Below are positions 24,001-30,000 of a DNA stretch of 64,000 nucleotides, piece by piece (the first letter of the stretch is position 1; the number at the start of each line of letters is the position of its first letter). The position numbers are program-made. Source of the stretch: a virus (taxonomy: Duplodnaviria > Heunggongvirae > Uroviricota > Caudoviricetes). The stretch is from IMG/VR virus record IMGVR_UViG_2718218452_000012. The stretch is one strand, 5' to 3'.

Positions 24001-27000
24001 CCCCAGAGAATTGTCTGGGGACATTTTAGAATGGTTCAAAGGGGACATTACAGCTTGATGTTAACAATAGCCTGCTTCTCCTTGCCTTCCGGCACTCGCG
24101 ACAGATTATGTTTAGACGACTGTCGTAGCGACGTATTTCTCCGTCAGGTAATGACCAGATAAGGTCCGGATCAACCACAGCAGGTTTCTTCACCTTTGCC
24201 CTCGAGAGTTTTTTGCGGGCGTTTTGCCAGTCCTTACGCGCCTGTTCAGACGGGAATAACCCGTAACCAGAGCTGTATACATCGCCACTGGCAACCAGCT
24301 CTCTGGCCAGAACGCTCATCAGATATCTTGTTGCCCCAGTTTTAGCTTCCAGTTGTCGTAACGTCTCGCGCCCACTCTGGCGTACGAGTTCCACCACCTG
24401 CCCTTTAATTTTTTCCCGCTCTTCTTGTGTAAAAACTTTTGCCACAAGTCCTCCTGAACATTACTTTATACCCTAAAATCAACACTTATCCCCTGAAACC
24501 AGGCGGAATTTCTGTATCCGGTTCAGAAATATGATTCACACAACGCTTTACAGGTGAACGTCCCAGGCGGATGACCAGTTCGTCCCATTTTTCGCGGAGT
24601 TTTGACGGGCTCATGATGTTTTTTACCCAGAATTGATCTCGCTGTACCCGACCAAACATTTCGCAAATTTGTCTGTGGCTTCTGCCATCCAGCATCCGCA
24701 TTGTGCGCACGTCATTGGCCCAGGCTGTCCAGTTAGGCTCTTTTGGTCGCATGATCTCTCCATCGTCGCTGGCAGCCTGTTCGTAAAGGTTCACGATCCG
24801 CCCCCAAATCCACTGCGCACACGCCAAATCCTCCCTGCTACCCCACTGGCGTTTTTTCGCACTAAACACAACCGCGTCGGGGTTCCGGGTTAAAAAATCC
24901 TGTTCAGCGGTCTGCGGGTCCGGTTGCGAAGCTTCCGGACGAAAAGTGTTTTTATTCTCTGTAGTAATCTCTGTTGTATTCTCTGTAAGATCATCAGGCC
25001 ATTTTGACCCGATGACATTGGGTCGTTTTGAACCAATGGAGCGTTTCATTTTGACCTCTTCCATCGTGTCATTTTGACCTGATGGAGCGGCGCATTTTAA
25101 ACCGATGGATTCGCTCAATTTGCCACCATCTAAAAGCTCGCTCCCGTAGTTGATCGTGTAGAAATTGGTCATATCGCGCTTTGATTTATTGAGCTTTTCA
25201 CAACGCAAAAGCCCCAGCGTTTTCAGACTTGCAAACGCGCGCTTTAACGTTGACTCTGACCAGAATGGGAACTGTTCCAGCCATTGTTCCGTTGTGTTGT
25301 AAATCCAGCGAACACCATCACATTCCATGCCGGAATTGGTATCTCTCAACCAGTAATGCAACTGCTGCAACACAATGGCTTCATTTAAGCCAATCTTCAT
25401 CGCAAGCTGTGTGTTTATAACCAGTGGGCGTTCAGCAAAAAGAAGGCTCATAATTCCATCCAGCTTTTTGTTGGTATTGCTGTCGATACGCAAGTTTGAA
25501 AGCAATTGCTTTTTCTATAAGTTCGTCAGTTTCACGATCCACTACGGCAGGATCAGCAAAAAGCAGTCCGGACTCCACCACATCGCCATATTCTTTGTTT
25601 AACCCGGCGATCATGTACGTGATGCTTTTTCCGTCACTAATTTCACGATACAACCTGAAATCATTAATCCGAATAGCCTCCATAATTGCAGGCACTAGCG
25701 CCGTGAACTTTTCACGCTTATCCCTGGTGTCGATAGCCTTCCAGCGTTCGAATATCTTCACTCGATTAACGCCAAGTGCTCGCTGATCAACCGCGCCACC
25801 TTCATCTGTGACACGCTGAACATCGATGTTCGGGCGCTCTTTCAAAGCCCAGAATGCTTCAGTGATTAATATCGTCGCCTGCTCCTGTGTCATTCCTGGT
25901 CGACATATCCAGGCATCCAGAGCCTCACGAGCCTGTTCAGGAGTGATTTTCATTGTTCAACCGCCCCGCCCGCTTCGTCTTACGATATTCGTCATAAACC
26001 TTGGGATCATACAGAAGCTCGCCGCCAGATGCCTCCTGTAGACGCATCGCGCGACCTTCAGGAACCAGCTCTTGCCATTGAGAAACAGCAGATGGGTCAA
26101 CGCCAGCAGCTTTCGCTACTTTGGCTTTCGTACCGTAAAAATTAATTACGTCTGATTTAAACATCGCACCTCCAATATTGAGTTTTCTCAATGCTAATCA
26201 CTCAAGGAATCTCAAGTCAAGGGTTATTAAGATATCTAAATATGAACGAGAAAACTTTAGGTCAACGCATTAGAGAAAGACGTAAGCAGGTAGGCTTAAG
26301 TCAAAACGGTTTAAGCAAAGCTGCTGGCGTATCTGGCTCATCAATTTCATTATGGGAAAGTGACCATACAGCCCCGCGCGGGCAAAATTTGCATCGCCTC
26401 GCCGAGGTATTGCAATGTTCACCAACTTGGATACTGTTTGGCGACGAGGACAAAACACCAGCTCCCCCTGTTTCACTCGATAGTGCCTTAGACTTATCGG
26501 AAGATGAGTTAGAGATGCTGCGTTTGTATCGCGCACTTCCTAAATCAGAGCAACAAGCACAACTCAGCGAACTCCGCGCCCGCGTTGAGAATTTTAATCG
26601 CCTGTTCACCGAGCTATTAGAGGCTCGCAAACGCAACAAGCATCAATAATCATCCCTTCACAAAATTTTAAAGCCTTACATTTCAATGTATTGGCTTTAT
26701 CTTGCGCCAACACTTGAGTTTTCTAATCAAAAAACCTTGACGAAAAATAATGAGAAAACTAAATTACCTCCATCAAGACACCGCACGGTGTTCTCAGCAA
26801 ACAGTTCCGCTACCCCGGCGTTAAGGGGAAATGAGGTCAGCATGGATACTATCGATCTTGGCAACAGCGAATCTCTGGTATGTGGCGTGTTCCCCAACCA
26901 GGACGGCACGTTCACCGCGATGACGTATACCAAAAGCAAAACGTTTAAAACCGAAAATGGTGCCCGTCGCTGGCTGGAAAGAAACTCAGGTGAGTGATAT

Positions 27001-30000
27001 GGATTTCGACACAATCATGGAAAAGGCTTACGAAGAATACTTCGAAGGCCTTGCCGAAGGCGAAGAAGCTCTCAGCTTCAGTGAGTTTAAACAGGCACTC
27101 AGAATAAGAATGTGCTCTCACAATGACGCGGAGCACAAATATGAGAAGCAAAATCAGACCGCAGAAAATTTTGTTCTGGAACCCGGAGAAACGCTTTTCA
27201 AAATTCCCGTTACGTGCCCCATTTGCGGTTTTACATCAGAAGAACTTGACGACTCCTGTAACAATCAGGAAACAACCAAGTATGTCGAAGATGATACCGA
27301 GTGCGCACGAAGAACGATTATATCCACGAGTCCAAACTCCAGGACCAATAAATCTCACTATGAGAGGGTGATTAATCCACTCCCCCAAACCAATAAAAAA
27401 GATGCCGGAGGACAAAAAACCCAATGGAACAACGGGATATCTGTCAAAAAAAGACGTTCCATTAAAGACAAACAACGCAGCGCCAACAACTGTAAGAGCT
27501 TTATACCAGTAATCAATTTTCATGTTCTTAAGCGGATTTATTGGTGGTTGCGACATTGCTTAATGAATCCTTAAAACTGTGGTGATTTTAAGGATACCAC
27601 CTCGCCTGACGTGGTTAAAAGCAGGCACACAACACGAAAGCGCACGGCGAAGTTCGTCTCACTGTACGGTGTCGTTAAATTTAATTCGACCGTGCGCTTC
27701 CGGTTGTGGCAACCCGCAAAATGGCGCGGCGGTAAGTATGGCGGGGTTATTCCTTCCCCGTTGAGGACACCGGGTTGTCAGGTTGACCATACGCTTAAGT
27801 GACAACCCCGCTGCAACGCCCTCTGTTATCAATTTTCTGGTGACGTTTGGCGGTATCAGTTTTACTCCGTGACTGCTCTGCCGCCCTTTTTAAAGTGAAT
27901 TTTGTGATGCGGTGAATACGGCTAAGCGCACGCGGAACAGTTAAAACCAAAAACAGTGTTATGGGTGGATTCTCTGTATCCGACGTTAATTGTTAACTGG
28001 TTAACGTCACCTGGAGGCACCAGGCACTGCATCACAAAATTCATTGTTGAGGACGCGATAATGAAAACGTTATTACCAAACGTTAATACGTCTGAAGGTT
28101 GTTTTGAAATTGGTGTCACTATCAGTAACCCTGTATTTACTGAAGATGCCATTAACAAGAGAAAACAAGAACGGGAGCTATTAAATAAAATATGCATTGT
28201 TTCAATGCTGGCTCGTTTACGTCTGATGCCAAAAGGATGTGCACAATGAATTCAGCATTTGCGCTTGTTCTGACAGTTTTTCTTGTTTCCGGAGTGCCAG
28301 TTGATATTGCAGTCAGTGTTCACAGGACAATGCAGGAGTGTATGACTGCAGCAACCGAACAGAAAATTCCCGGTAACTGTTACCCGGTCGATAAAGTTAT
28401 TCACCAGGATAATATCGAAATCCCGGCAGGTCTTTAAAACAGTTCCGTAATAAATATCCGGTTTCATTCTTATATGCCAGCAATGGCAGGGATTTGTTCA
28501 TCCTTAAATCTGTCATGAGGTTAAAACAAATGAGTAAAGTCTTTATTTGCGCCGCTATTCCTGACGAACTGGCAACAAGGGAAGAAGGCGCTGTGGCTGT
28601 AGCCACAGCCATTGAAGCTGGCGACGAACGCCGTGCTCGAGCAAAATTTCACTGGCAATTCCTGGAACATTATCCGGCTGCTCAGGACTGCGCTTATAAA
28701 TTTATTGTCTGCGAGGATAAACCTGGCATACCCCGCCCTGCCCTCGATTCATGGGATGCTGAATATATGCAGGAAAACCGCTGGGATGAGGAGTCTGCTT
28801 CTTTTGTCCCGGTTGAGACTGAATCCGATCCGATGAACGTCACTTTTGACAAGCTGGCCCCTGAAGTACAGAACGCTGTCATGGTTAAGTTCGACACATG
28901 TGAAAACATCACCGTTGATATGGTTATTAGCGCATGCGCTAATAACCATATCAACGGTGATGTTTTCACATGTGTCGAACTTAACCATGACAGCGTTCTG
29001 TACTTCAGGGGCCAGCTTGTCAAAAGTGACGTTCATCGGATCGGATTCAGTCTCAACCGGGACAAAAGAAGCAGACTCCTCATCCCAGCGGTTTTCCTGC
29101 ATATATTCAGCATCCCATGAATCGAGGGCAGGGCGGGGTATGCCAGGTTTATCCTCGCAGACAATAAATTTATAAGCGCAGTCCTGAGCAGCCGGATAAT
29201 GTTCCAGGAATTGCCAGTGAAATTTTGCTCGAGCACGGCGTTCGTCGCCAGCTTCAATGGCTGTGGCTACAGCCACAGCGCCTTCTTCCCTTGTTGCCAG
29301 TTCGTCAGGAATAGCGGCGCAAATAAAGACTTTACTCATTTGTTTTAACCTCATGACAGATTTAAGGATGAACAAATCCCTGCCATTGCTGGCATATAAG
29401 AATGAAACCGGATATTTATTACGGAACTGTTTTAAAGACCTGCCGGGATTTCGATATTATCCTGGTGAATAACTTTATCGACCGGGTAACAGTTACCGGG
29501 AATTTTCTGTTCGGTTGCTGCAGTCATACACTACTGCATTGTCCTGTGAACACTGACTGCAATATCAACTGGCTCTCCGGAAACAAGAAAAACTGTCAGA
29601 ACAAGCACAAATGCTGAATTCATTGTGCACATCCTTTTGGCATCAGACGTAAACGAGCCAGCATTGAAACAATGCATATTTTATTTAATAGCTCCCGTTC
29701 TTGTTTTCTCTTGTTAATGGCATCTTCAGTAAATACTGGGTTACTGATAGTGACACCAATTTCAAAACAACCTTCAGACGTATTAACGTTTGGTAATAAC
29801 GTTTTCATTATCGCGTCCTCAACAATGAATTTTGTGATGCAGTGCCTGGTGCCTCCAGGTGACGTTAACCAGTTAACAATTAACGCCGGATACAGAGAAT
29901 CCACCCATAACACTGTTTTTGGTTTTAACTGTTCCGCGTGCGCTCAGCCGCATTCACCACATCACAAAATTCACTTTAAAAAGGGCGGCAGAGCAGTCAC

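What the first reader, a model, noticed from the sequence alone, without database searches (positions are those of the whole stretch)
26999..27574. Arm A replaces ydfB-ydfC with a ydfB N-terminus fused to a novel zinc-finger-like extension
The first 33 codons equal YdfB, but the frame then continues for 158 more codons including CPICGF and a basic C-terminus; arm B has the canonical ydfB plus ydfC. A domain swap inside the dicA-controlled operon upstream of dicF/dicB could alter regulation of the division-inhibitor module.
Basis: seen in the sequence. Interest (0 to 1): 0.35.

Follow-up and report, generated by a model that had tools for sequence, protein, structure and literature searches.

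The report
Two-strand prophage cassette replacing ydfB-ydfC
The long ORF is real, but most of it is the mirror image of an overlooked, widely conserved small membrane-protein gene on the opposite strand, and comparison with related phages suggests that both strands of this roughly 0.5 kb prophage cassette encode protein.

Summary
ORF 26999-27574 (+) is YdfB codons 1-34 followed by 157 other codons, and arm B keeps canonical ydfB and ydfC. The same DNA is in about 800 of 5,426 complete E. coli genomes, so it is not a frameshift artefact.

The interpretation needs revision. A ~540 bp cassette (27101-27640) replaced the ydfB 3' end and ydfC. Its best-supported gene is on the minus strand (27556-27236). 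It encodes a 106-aa, three-helix membrane protein from a family of at least 481 clusters that matches nothing in Pfam, PHROGs, NCBIfam or PADLOC. The last 107 sense codons of the plus ORF are its codon-aligned antisense, which explains the basic tail.

The plus frame is nevertheless not a simple shadow. In every phage-borne lineage examined, the minus gene uses no TTA, CTA or TCA codons, so the plus frame stays open. Non-phage homologues of similar GC carry 5-12 stops. A short N-terminal plus-frame domain (CPxCG or GW type) evolves under purifying selection, and native copies have strong ribosome-binding sites.

A zinc finger is not supported. The function of either product, and expression of either strand, remain untested.

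The parts
26999..27574 (+). Chimeric 191-codon ORF: YdfB codons 1-34, then 157 cassette-derived codons, then a TAA stop. It is PGAP hypothetical protein WP_000344958.1 in some genomes and matches phrog_35040.
   Evidence: It is intact in 154 of 161 fetched loci of this type.
26999..27100 (+). ydfB-derived part (34 codons), using ydfB's own start one base after the ydfA stop codon. Homology with arm B ends at 27099.
   Evidence: PGAP annotates exactly this stretch as a ydfB pseudogene.
27101..27235 (+). Part of the plus ORF that lies outside the antisense overlap (45 codons). It is the remnant of the native N-terminal domain of the cassette's plus-strand gene.
   Evidence: It is homologous to the N-termini of variants that begin at an ATG preceded by a ribosome-binding site (MGIQKQQKSDGEYPY...).
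27182..27232 (+). Conserved plus-frame motif PGE..F.IP..CP[IV]CGF (codons 62-78).
   Evidence: Across lineages the codons vary only at third positions: Ile ATT/ATC/ATA, Pro CCC/CCG/CCA/CCT, Cys TGC/TGT, Gly GGT/GGA, Phe TTT/TTC. The plus frame has the lowest pN/pS of the six frames, 0.48. The motif recurs in distant lineages L220 and L216.
27236..27556 (-). Gene for a 106-aa inner-membrane protein (stop codon included). It has three predicted transmembrane helices and a beta-hairpin. Invariant motifs are YWYKA and G.GEW.NHP. The family has no name and no annotation.
   Evidence: Homologues of the same length reach down to 34% identity across Proteobacteria. There are 481 cluster representatives. 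pN/pS is 0.15-0.42. Of 22 polymorphic sites, 15 fall on its third codon positions. It is intact in 161 of 161 loci. The AlphaFold model has pLDDT 84.8.
27557..27640 (-). Conserved 5' flank of the minus-strand gene. It contains an invariant GCCTG...CAGGC stem (27626-27604), a promoter-like TTAACC-16 nt-TGgTATCCT (27618-27591) and a 9-bp inverted repeat (27594-27568). The TAA stop of the plus ORF lies inside the inverted repeat.
   Evidence: The flank is conserved in window, L123/L125, L124, L006 and Yersinia lineages. The minus-strand RNA fold has z = -3.7. One compensatory pair was found. The promoter is inferred only and falls below the threshold of the scan.
26842..26997 (+). ydfA (DUF1391). 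It is the upstream gene of the operon, and its stop abuts the start of the chimeric ORF. Context only.
26242..26649 (+). DicA-like helix-turn-helix repressor gene. Context only.
27835..27886 (+). DicF small RNA, downstream in the same operon. Context only.
   Evidence: Rfam RF00039, 76.7 bits
28061..28249 (+). dicB, the cell-division inhibitor, downstream in the same operon. Context only.
30377..30753 (-). Arm B counterpart: canonical ydfB (30625-30753) and ydfC (30377-30595). These are the genes the cassette replaces in arm A.

Best explanation
A mobile cassette of about 540 bp (27101-27640) has replaced the 3' end of ydfB and all of ydfC in this Qin-like prophage. The cassette codes on both strands.

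SHOWN:
- The minus strand (27556-27236) carries a well conserved gene for a 106-aa, three-helix membrane protein of an unannotated family.
- The plus strand carries a reading frame that contains this gene completely, in the codon-aligned antisense register.
- In native phage copies the plus frame begins at its own strong ribosome-binding site and ATG. It has a 35-45 residue N-terminal domain that is conserved as protein, of either CPxCG or GW type.
- In all phage-borne lineages the plus frame is kept free of stop codons, because the minus gene avoids TTA, CTA and TCA codons.
- In this window the native start of the plus frame has been replaced by the first 34 codons of ydfB, giving the 191-codon chimera.
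- The cassette always sits with the membrane gene antisense to an early lytic operon next to the repressor gene. This is either the dicB/early-left operon or the stretch between cro and cII.

INFERRED:
- While the prophage is repressed by DicA, the membrane gene is transcribed from its own promoter, like a moron. It probably serves the lysogen through an envelope or phage-exclusion role.
- When the early operon is derepressed, RNA polymerase and ribosomes read through the cassette on the plus strand. The open frame lets translation accompany transcription towards dicF and dicB, and convergent transcription shuts off the membrane gene.
- Whether the plus product, and its disordered basic tail in particular, has a function of its own is open.
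For: Minus-strand gene:
- 60 homologues were found, including Yersinia (51% identity), Herminiimonas (43%) and Reinekea (41%), all about 100-110 aa.
- The motifs YWYKA and G.GEW.NHP are invariant.
- A profile search found 481 representatives.
- pN/pS is 0.15-0.42.
- 15 of 22 polymorphisms fall on its third codon positions.
- It is intact in 161 of 161 loci.
- The structure model is confident and shows three transmembrane helices.

Plus frame kept open:
- There are no antisense stops in window, L004, L123/L125/L132, L124, L006, L011-13, L019, mEp390/L212, L222/223, L231, L226/228, L219, L220 or L216.
- Non-phage homologues of similar GC have 5-12 stops; the lowest-GC ones reach 17.
- The chance expectation per lineage is 0.004-0.03, and 7.4% of comparable windows in real genes are open.
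- A-ending codons make up 13-27% of four-fold families and ATA is used, yet TTA, CTA and TCA are absent.

Plus-frame N-terminal domain:
- Variation is confined to third codon positions.
- pN/pS is 0.48 for the CPxCG type and 0.46 for the GW type, where every other frame contains stops.

Translation starts and context:
- Native plus ORFs have GGAGG, AGGAG or GAGG 6-9 nt before the ATG.
- Genomic context was established.

The cassette is mobile: it occupies different insertion points and has different left junctions (ydfB codon 34, the ydfA start, Rac-like prophages, the pR operon).
Against: - No transcription or translation data exist for either strand.
- The minus-gene promoter is only a weak consensus match (8 of 12 plus an extended -10 TG) and was not returned by the scan. 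No clear Shine-Dalgarno sequence lies at a normal distance from its ATG.
- Inside the overlap the plus frame shows no amino-acid constraint of its own (pN/pS 0.7-1.5).
- The plus ORF is occasionally broken while the minus gene stays intact: L123 has GGA to TGA, L136/L255/L283 have a TCA codon, and there are frameshift variants. In total 7 of 161 loci are affected.
- In the 45 non-overlapping codons of this particular lineage, polymorphisms show no third-position excess (4, 3 and 2 at positions 3, 1 and 2).
- AlphaFold gives no confident fold for the plus extension.
- About 490 nt between the end of the plus ORF and dicB are untranslated anyway, which weakens the anti-polarity argument in this window.
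- The proposed function of the membrane protein has no homology support. PADLOC, Pfam, NCBIfam, PHROGs, PDB and BFVD all gave no match.
Confidence: 0.7

Rival explanations
1. The plus ORF is a pure shadow ORF. Only the minus-strand membrane gene is real. The 191-codon frame is open by chance because the codon-aligned antisense frame can only be closed by TTA, CTA or TCA codons, and PGAP's 'ydfB pseudogene' call is the correct reading of the plus strand.
For: - The constraint inside the overlap belongs to the minus frame.
- The basic composition of the tail is what the antisense of a hydrophobic gene gives.
- The plus ORF is broken in 7 of 161 loci while the minus gene never is.
- The AlphaFold model of the extension is disordered.
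- PGAP mostly does not call it.
- 7.4% of comparable windows in real genes are open by chance.
Against: - The frame is open in more than ten lineages, several of them saturated at synonymous sites (pS about 0.7). The per-lineage chance is 0.004-0.03.
- The avoidance is specific to the three codons that would create stops, while other A-ending codons are used.
- Non-phage homologues of the same GC are full of stops.
- The plus-frame N-terminal domain lies outside the overlap and is conserved as protein.
- Native copies have strong ribosome-binding sites.
Confidence: 0.15
2. One reading: the locus encodes only a YdfB-N-terminus::zinc-finger fusion protein that regulates the dicF/dicB module, and the minus-strand ORF is spurious.
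For: - The in-frame fusion and the conserved CPxCG motif are real.
- The ORF is annotated as a protein in some genomes and in PHROGs.
Against: - The minus ORF has hundreds of homologues of the same length in organisms where the plus frame is closed.
- The minus ORF carries the dominant selective constraint.
- Only one CxxC is conserved, and it is absent from the GW clade.
- No zinc-finger family matches.
- AlphaFold confidence is low.
Confidence: 0.03
3. The plus frame is kept open only so that it can be translated, as a 'bridging' ORF that carries ribosomes across an antisense insert and prevents Rho-dependent polarity or antisense-RNA attack on the early transcript. Its protein product has no function of its own.
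For: - There is no amino-acid constraint on the 107 overlapping codons, yet stops are strictly avoided.
- The left junctions always join an upstream start in frame: ydfB codon 34, or the ydfA leader and ATG.
- In L132/L134/L135 and in P0066/68/70 the frame continues in frame into ydfC.
Against: - The N-terminal domain is conserved as protein in two types across many lineages, which a mere bridge would not need.
- In this window about 490 nt after the ORF are untranslated in any case.
Confidence: 0.12

Closest known systems
Antisense overlapping gene pairs described in E. coli O157:H7 (nog1/citC, laoB, asa, ano, pop/ompA, oloz genes; PMC5810103, PMC6294744, PMC5960689, PMC7103648, PMC9927249)
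   Same: Two protein-coding frames lie on opposite strands of the same DNA. One member is taxonomically wider and presumably older, and the other is restricted and presumably arose by overprinting. Annotation pipelines call at most one of the two.
   Different: - Here the older, conserved gene is the shorter one, and it lies entirely inside the younger and longer frame.
- The pair is conserved as a unit across many diverged phage lineages, with membrane-protein identity down to about 38%.
- The evidence here is comparative only. The published cases rest on RNA-seq, ribosome profiling and mutant phenotypes.
Prophage morons and superinfection-exclusion membrane proteins near the immunity region (lambda, P22 and Rac SieB; P22 SieA; PMC3594210, PMC10883804, PMC11436027)
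   Same: It is a small inner-membrane protein gene placed beside the repressor gene of lambdoid prophages. Its orientation and flanks suggest an independent transcription unit, and it is carried by a cassette found at different positions in different phages.
   Different: There is no sequence or structural similarity to any known exclusion or defence protein. The promoter, expression in lysogens and any exclusion phenotype are untested. The gene is embedded antisense within an early ORF, which is not a described feature of these morons.
Canonical dicBF operon of Qin (ydfA-ydfB-ydfC-dicF-dicB-ydfD; PMC5069750)
   Same: It has the same operon frame: a DicA-like repressor, ydfA, the ydfB start, dicF, dicB and ydfD. 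Arm B of the window shows the canonical version.
   Different: YdfB is cut after residue 34 and ydfC is missing. Both are replaced by the cassette. That paper notes variable gene content around dicF but does not describe this cassette.
PHROG phrog_35040 / RefSeq WP_000344958.1 (uncharacterised)
   Same: The plus ORF matches over its full length (E = 3e-140). Plus ORFs of diverged lineages also match.
   Different: These entries record only the plus-strand product and give no function. None records the embedded minus-strand gene.

Membership tests
YdfB (42-aa protein of the Qin dicBF operon) | Full-length 42-residue product ending ...KQALSSSAKSNG | tested here: not met
   Only residues 1-34 are shared and the sequence then diverges. 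PGAP flags it as incomplete.
Zinc finger / zinc ribbon | Four conserved metal ligands (two CxxC/H pairs) and a recognisable fold or family match | tested here: not met
   One CPxC is conserved and there is no conserved second pair. The sister clade has no cysteines at this position. Pfam gave nothing. pLDDT is below 50.
phrog_35040 (plus-strand ORF family, function unknown) | Full-length match to the profile | tested here: met
   E = 3.1e-140 over residues 1-191 against profile positions 15-205.
Unnamed small membrane-protein family (YWYKA / GLGEWINHP) | About 100-110 aa, the invariant motifs YWYKA and G.GEW.NHP, and three hydrophobic helices | tested here: met
   All invariant columns are present in the window protein. 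The family profile finds 481 representatives, among them P0001, a 98%-identical relative of the window protein, at 2.8e-36. The model shows three helices.
Antisense overlapping gene pair | Purifying selection on the first (minus) frame | tested here: met
   pN/pS is 0.15-0.42, 15 of 22 polymorphisms are at third positions, and 161 of 161 loci are intact.
Antisense overlapping gene pair | Selection on the second (plus) frame, independent of the first | tested here: inconclusive
   Stop avoidance is strong. The N-terminal domain outside the overlap has pN/pS 0.46-0.48. There is no amino-acid constraint within the overlap, and the frame is occasionally lost.
Antisense overlapping gene pair | Transcription and translation of both frames | not testable with these tools
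   No expression data were available. Only sequence signals exist: strong ribosome-binding sites for native plus ORFs and a weak promoter-like site for the minus gene.
Moron (independent transcription unit in a prophage) | Own promoter and terminator, with expression in the lysogen | tested here: inconclusive
   There is a conserved 5' flank with TGgTATCCT and TTAACC. The scan returned no site at its threshold and no convincing terminator. Expression could not be tested.
Known superinfection-exclusion or defence proteins | Homology to a described exclusion or defence family | tested here: not met
   PADLOC, PHROGs, NCBIfam and Pfam gave no match. Foldseek against PDB and BFVD gave no match with E <= 0.001.

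The most novel reading that the evidence does not exclude
This may be a conserved module that codes for protein on both strands. An old membrane-protein gene, expressed in the lysogen, lies wholly inside a younger early-lytic gene that was overprinted on its antisense strand. Both products would be functional, and convergent transcription would make their expression mutually exclusive. The state of the prophage would then decide which strand of the same 320 bp is read as protein. If so, it would be one of the best comparative cases of long antisense coding overlap in bacteria or phages. It would also define two new protein families: the YWYKA/GEWINHP membrane protein and the CPxCG/GW early protein.
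Probability: 0.4. Interest if true: 0.7.

Novelty: new variant of a known kind. Interest (0 to 1): 0.55.

Why it matters
1. About 15% of complete E. coli genomes, including O157:H7 strains, carry a conserved membrane-protein gene here that standard annotation misses. The pipeline instead calls either a 'ydfB pseudogene' or the opposite-strand ORF. The family has hundreds of members and is in no domain library.

2. Most proposed bacterial antisense overlapping genes are young and are disputed on evolutionary grounds. Here, stop-codon avoidance and a conserved N-terminal domain recur across many diverged phage lineages. This gives an unusually clean comparative test case, and it can be checked directly with synonymous stop mutations.

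3. The cassette sits between the DicA-controlled promoter and dicF/dicB. An antisense transcription unit there could change how easily this toxic cell-division-inhibitor module is expressed.

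Tried and rejected
- Family and fold searches for the membrane protein found nothing useful: Pfam (only far sub-threshold chance hits), PHROGs, NCBIfam, PADLOC, PDB sequence search, and Foldseek against PDB and BFVD. The plus-strand extension also found nothing except phrog_35040.
- Rfam finds only the two DicF copies, with no RNA family in the cassette.
- I first read the inverted repeat upstream of the minus gene as a hairpin sequestering the ribosome-binding site. I dropped this because the AAGGA lies 11-16 nt from the ATG in all lineages. If TATCCT is the -10 element, the 5' arm would not even be transcribed. Only one compensatory pair was found.
- I considered readthrough or a recoding signal after the minus-gene TGA to explain the conserved downstream DNA. 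I rejected it because the minus frames are not conserved there, and the codon-aligned minus frame and one other carry stops.
- A small minus-strand ORF (27154-27264) shares third positions with the plus frame. It is less conserved than the plus frame and lacks a start codon in several lineages.
- Two scans of viral contigs returned almost only near-identical E. coli copies. The diverse lineages came from the genome and metagenome scans.
- The record note for mEp390_039, 'similar to Bcep176 gp33', does not hold at the protein level. The two ORFs are on opposite strands of homologous DNA.
- No paper describing this cassette or this family was found.

Full report
OBSERVATION

The window carries two Qin-like dic regions head to head. 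The inverted-repeat arms were mapped, and the arms meet at 28934/28935. In arm A an ATG at 26999, one base after the ydfA stop, opens a 191-codon frame that ends at 27574. Its first 34 residues equal arm B's YdfB. The arms then diverge at 27099/30653 and re-converge near 27620-27640. Arm B keeps canonical ydfB (42 aa) and ydfC (72 aa). DicF lies at 27835-27886 and, in arm B, at 29983-30034.

The divergent 506 bp are present in 805 of 5,426 complete E. coli genomes, and in 780 of them they are at least 99% identical. PGAP usually annotates 'ydfB, incomplete' and leaves the next ~960 bp empty. In a few genomes it calls the 191-aa ORF (WP_000344958.1). PHROGs holds the ORF as phrog_35040.

THE OPPOSITE STRAND

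The minus strand has a 106-codon ORF at 27556-27236 with three hydrophobic stretches. It has 60 database relatives of the same length, from E. coli (98%) through Yersinia (51%) to Herminiimonas (43%) and Reinekea (41%). The invariant motifs are YWYKA and G.GEW.NHP. An exhaustive profile search finds 481 cluster representatives, 215 of them at E <= 1e-10 and nearly all 100-115 aa long.

AlphaFold gives a confident model (pLDDT 84.8) with helices at 17-32, 42-62 and 85-105 and a hairpin at 65-79. Nothing similar is found in Pfam, PHROGs, NCBIfam, PADLOC, PDB or BFVD.

Selection acts on this frame:
- Against a 95.8%-identical copy, 8 of 13 substitutions are at its third codon positions.
- Among 25 distinct sequences from 86 loci, 15 of 22 polymorphic sites are at its third positions.
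- pN/pS is 0.15-0.42.
- The ORF is intact in 161 of 161 fetched loci.

The last 107 sense codons of the plus ORF (27236-27556; five more codons follow before the stop) are the exact codon-aligned antisense of this gene. That explains the K/R/N-rich 'basic C-terminus'. In the overlap the plus frame has pN/pS 1.3-1.5 between close relatives and 0.70-0.84 for distant pairs, so it has no amino-acid constraint of its own.

THE PLUS FRAME IS NOT JUST A SHADOW

In the codon-aligned antisense register, only TTA, CTA and TCA codons of the minus gene can create plus-frame stops. The gene has about 10 Leu and 6 Ser codons, and its GC3 is about 0.41. Under the codon usage of 64 long ORFs from the same loci, the chance of an open frame is 0.004-0.03 per lineage. 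Empirically, 7.4% of 107-codon windows in real genes are open.

Yet the frame is open in every phage-borne lineage examined, leaving aside the few mutant copies listed below. These are window, L004, L123/L125/L132, L124, L006, Yersinia L011-13, L019, mEp390/L212, L222/223, L231, L226/228, L219, L220 and L216. Several of these are saturated at synonymous sites relative to each other (pS about 0.7). Other A-ending codons are used freely: they make up 13-27% of four-fold families, and ATA is present. TTA, CTA and TCA are absent. Non-phage homologues of similar GC carry 5-12 stops, and the lowest-GC ones reach 17.

The part of the plus frame that lies outside the minus gene is conserved as protein. 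It comes in two types:
- CPxCG type, consensus PGE..F.IP..CP[IV]CGF. The codons differ only at third positions: Ile ATT/ATC/ATA, Pro CCC/CCG/CCA/CCT, Cys TGC/TGT, Gly GGT/GGA, Phe TTT/TTC. pN/pS is 0.48, the lowest of the six frames. The motif recurs in the distant lineages L220 and L216.
- GW type, consensus LE+..PGSV.ID.....V.L.GW, seen in mEp390, L019, L222, L231, L228, L226, L219 and L221. pN/pS is 0.46 with pS 0.71, and all five other frames contain stops.

Native plus ORFs start at an ATG preceded by GGAGG, AGGAG or GAGG at 6-9 nt.

There are counter-indications. The plus ORF is broken in a few copies where the minus gene is intact: L123 has CPVC*, L136/L255/L283 carry a TCA codon, and there are frameshifts. 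In total 7 of 161 loci are affected. AlphaFold finds no fold beyond the YdfB-derived helices (pLDDT 45). The zinc-finger idea fails because only one CxxC is conserved and the GW clade has none.

CONTEXT AND MOBILITY

The cassette is always oriented with the membrane gene antisense to an early operon next to the repressor gene. Three settings were seen:
- Between a CI, DicA or RacR-like repressor and the early-left genes, in Qin-like, Rac-like and other lambdoid prophages.
- Between cro and a cII-like gene in mEp390-type phages.
- Different left junctions: ydfB codon 34 (this window), the ydfA leader and ATG (L125 type, where some copies read on in frame into ydfC), or the cassette's own start.

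A conserved stretch of about 85 bp lies upstream of the minus gene (27557-27640). It holds an invariant stem, a promoter-like TTAACC-16-TGgTATCCT and a 9-bp inverted repeat. The promoter assignment is inference only, and the generic scan did not return it.

Distant family members sit in ordinary chromosomal contexts or in arrays of small ORFs, with no embedding frame.

MECHANISM

Shown:
- The gene content of both strands.
- Constraint on the minus frame.
- Stop avoidance and N-terminal conservation in the plus frame.
- The fixed orientation relative to early operons.

Inferred:
- The membrane protein is made from its own promoter while the prophage is repressed, like a moron. An exclusion or envelope role is a guess from its position, with perhaps 30% probability.
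- On derepression, transcription and translation of the early operon run through the cassette on the plus strand. The open frame keeps ribosomes on the transcript, and convergent transcription silences the membrane gene.
- Whether the plus product itself acts, through its small N-terminal domain and basic tail, is open.

In this window the plus frame is a derivative in which the native start was replaced by YdfB residues 1-34.

COMPARISON AND NOVELTY

The nearest known things are:
- The antisense overlapping genes reported in EHEC (PMC5810103, PMC6294744, PMC5960689, PMC7103648, PMC9927249).
- Morons and exclusion genes of the immunity region (PMC3594210, PMC10883804).
- The canonical dicBF operon (PMC5069750).

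None of these describes this cassette, and literature searches found nothing on it. This case differs from the published overlapping pairs in two ways. The older gene is nested entirely inside the younger frame, and the pair is conserved across many diverged lineages. It also rests on comparative evidence only.

I rate it a new variant of a known kind, of moderate interest. What is solid is an overlooked gene family and a mis-annotation that affects about 15% of E. coli genomes. What is intriguing is the coding of both strands, which remains unproven.

Noticed in passing
window 27743-30126, centre 28934/28935: A perfect head-to-head palindrome: 1,192-nt arms, 99% complementary, with no spacer. 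The junction lies inside the prophage exonuclease gene, so both copies are truncated after about 150 codons. No place in any of 5,426 complete E. coli genomes spans the junction. It is either a rare real inverted duplication or fusion of two different Qin-like prophages, or an assembly artefact.
   Followed up: partly
window 27835-27886 (+) and 29983-30034 (-): Two full-length DicF small RNA genes (76.7 bits each) and two dicB copies face each other across the palindrome. This doubles the dose of the division-inhibitor module.
   Followed up: no
L132, L134, L135 (IMG/VR) and proteins P0066, P0068, P0070: In a sister variant of the cassette the plus frame lacks the TAA in the inverted repeat. 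It continues in frame through the conserved flank into ydfC, giving open frames of 279-280 codons (predicted proteins of 245-271 aa) that end with the full YdfC sequence.
   Followed up: partly
L123 3001-3321; L136, L255, L283: These are natural knock-outs of the plus frame with the membrane gene intact. L123 has GGA to TGA inside the CPVCG motif. L136, L255 and L283 have an Ala-to-Ser change encoded by TCA, which puts TGA into the plus frame.
   Followed up: partly
L121 (phage mEp390) 3956-4411 and L122 (phage Bcep176) 3884-4348: The record note for mEp390_039 says 'similar to Bcep176 gp33'. The two annotated ORFs are in fact on opposite strands of homologous DNA. Bcep176 gp33 is the membrane-family member, and mEp390_039 is the antisense ORF that contains it. 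The two proteins are not similar (E = 0.53).
   Followed up: yes
L127/L128 (Reinekea) 100-3100; L129 100-1400: Non-phage members of the membrane-protein family sit in runs of small same-direction ORFs of unknown function, including a ParD-like antitoxin. This looks like an integron-type cassette array, but attC sites were not searched for.
   Followed up: no
L024, L025, L026 (Arcobacter sp. chromosome): One genome holds three copies of the family gene, each matching the query identically (38% identity, same coordinates and E-value), at distant positions. This suggests carriage on a repeated mobile element.
   Followed up: no
window 24486-25505 (-) versus 32230-33249 (+), and neighbouring genes: The replication and immunity genes of the two arms (YdaT-like, Cro-like and O-like proteins) are 84-97% identical rather than identical. 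The arms are therefore two diverged prophage copies, not a recent exact duplication.
   Followed up: no
L036 (Shigella flexneri) 6001-6282: The Shigella copy of the membrane gene is a pseudogene, with a stop after 10 codons and further frame disruption. This is the only clearly decayed minus-strand copy among the loci analysed here (a few truncated or frameshifted variants also appear among the database protein hits).
   Followed up: no
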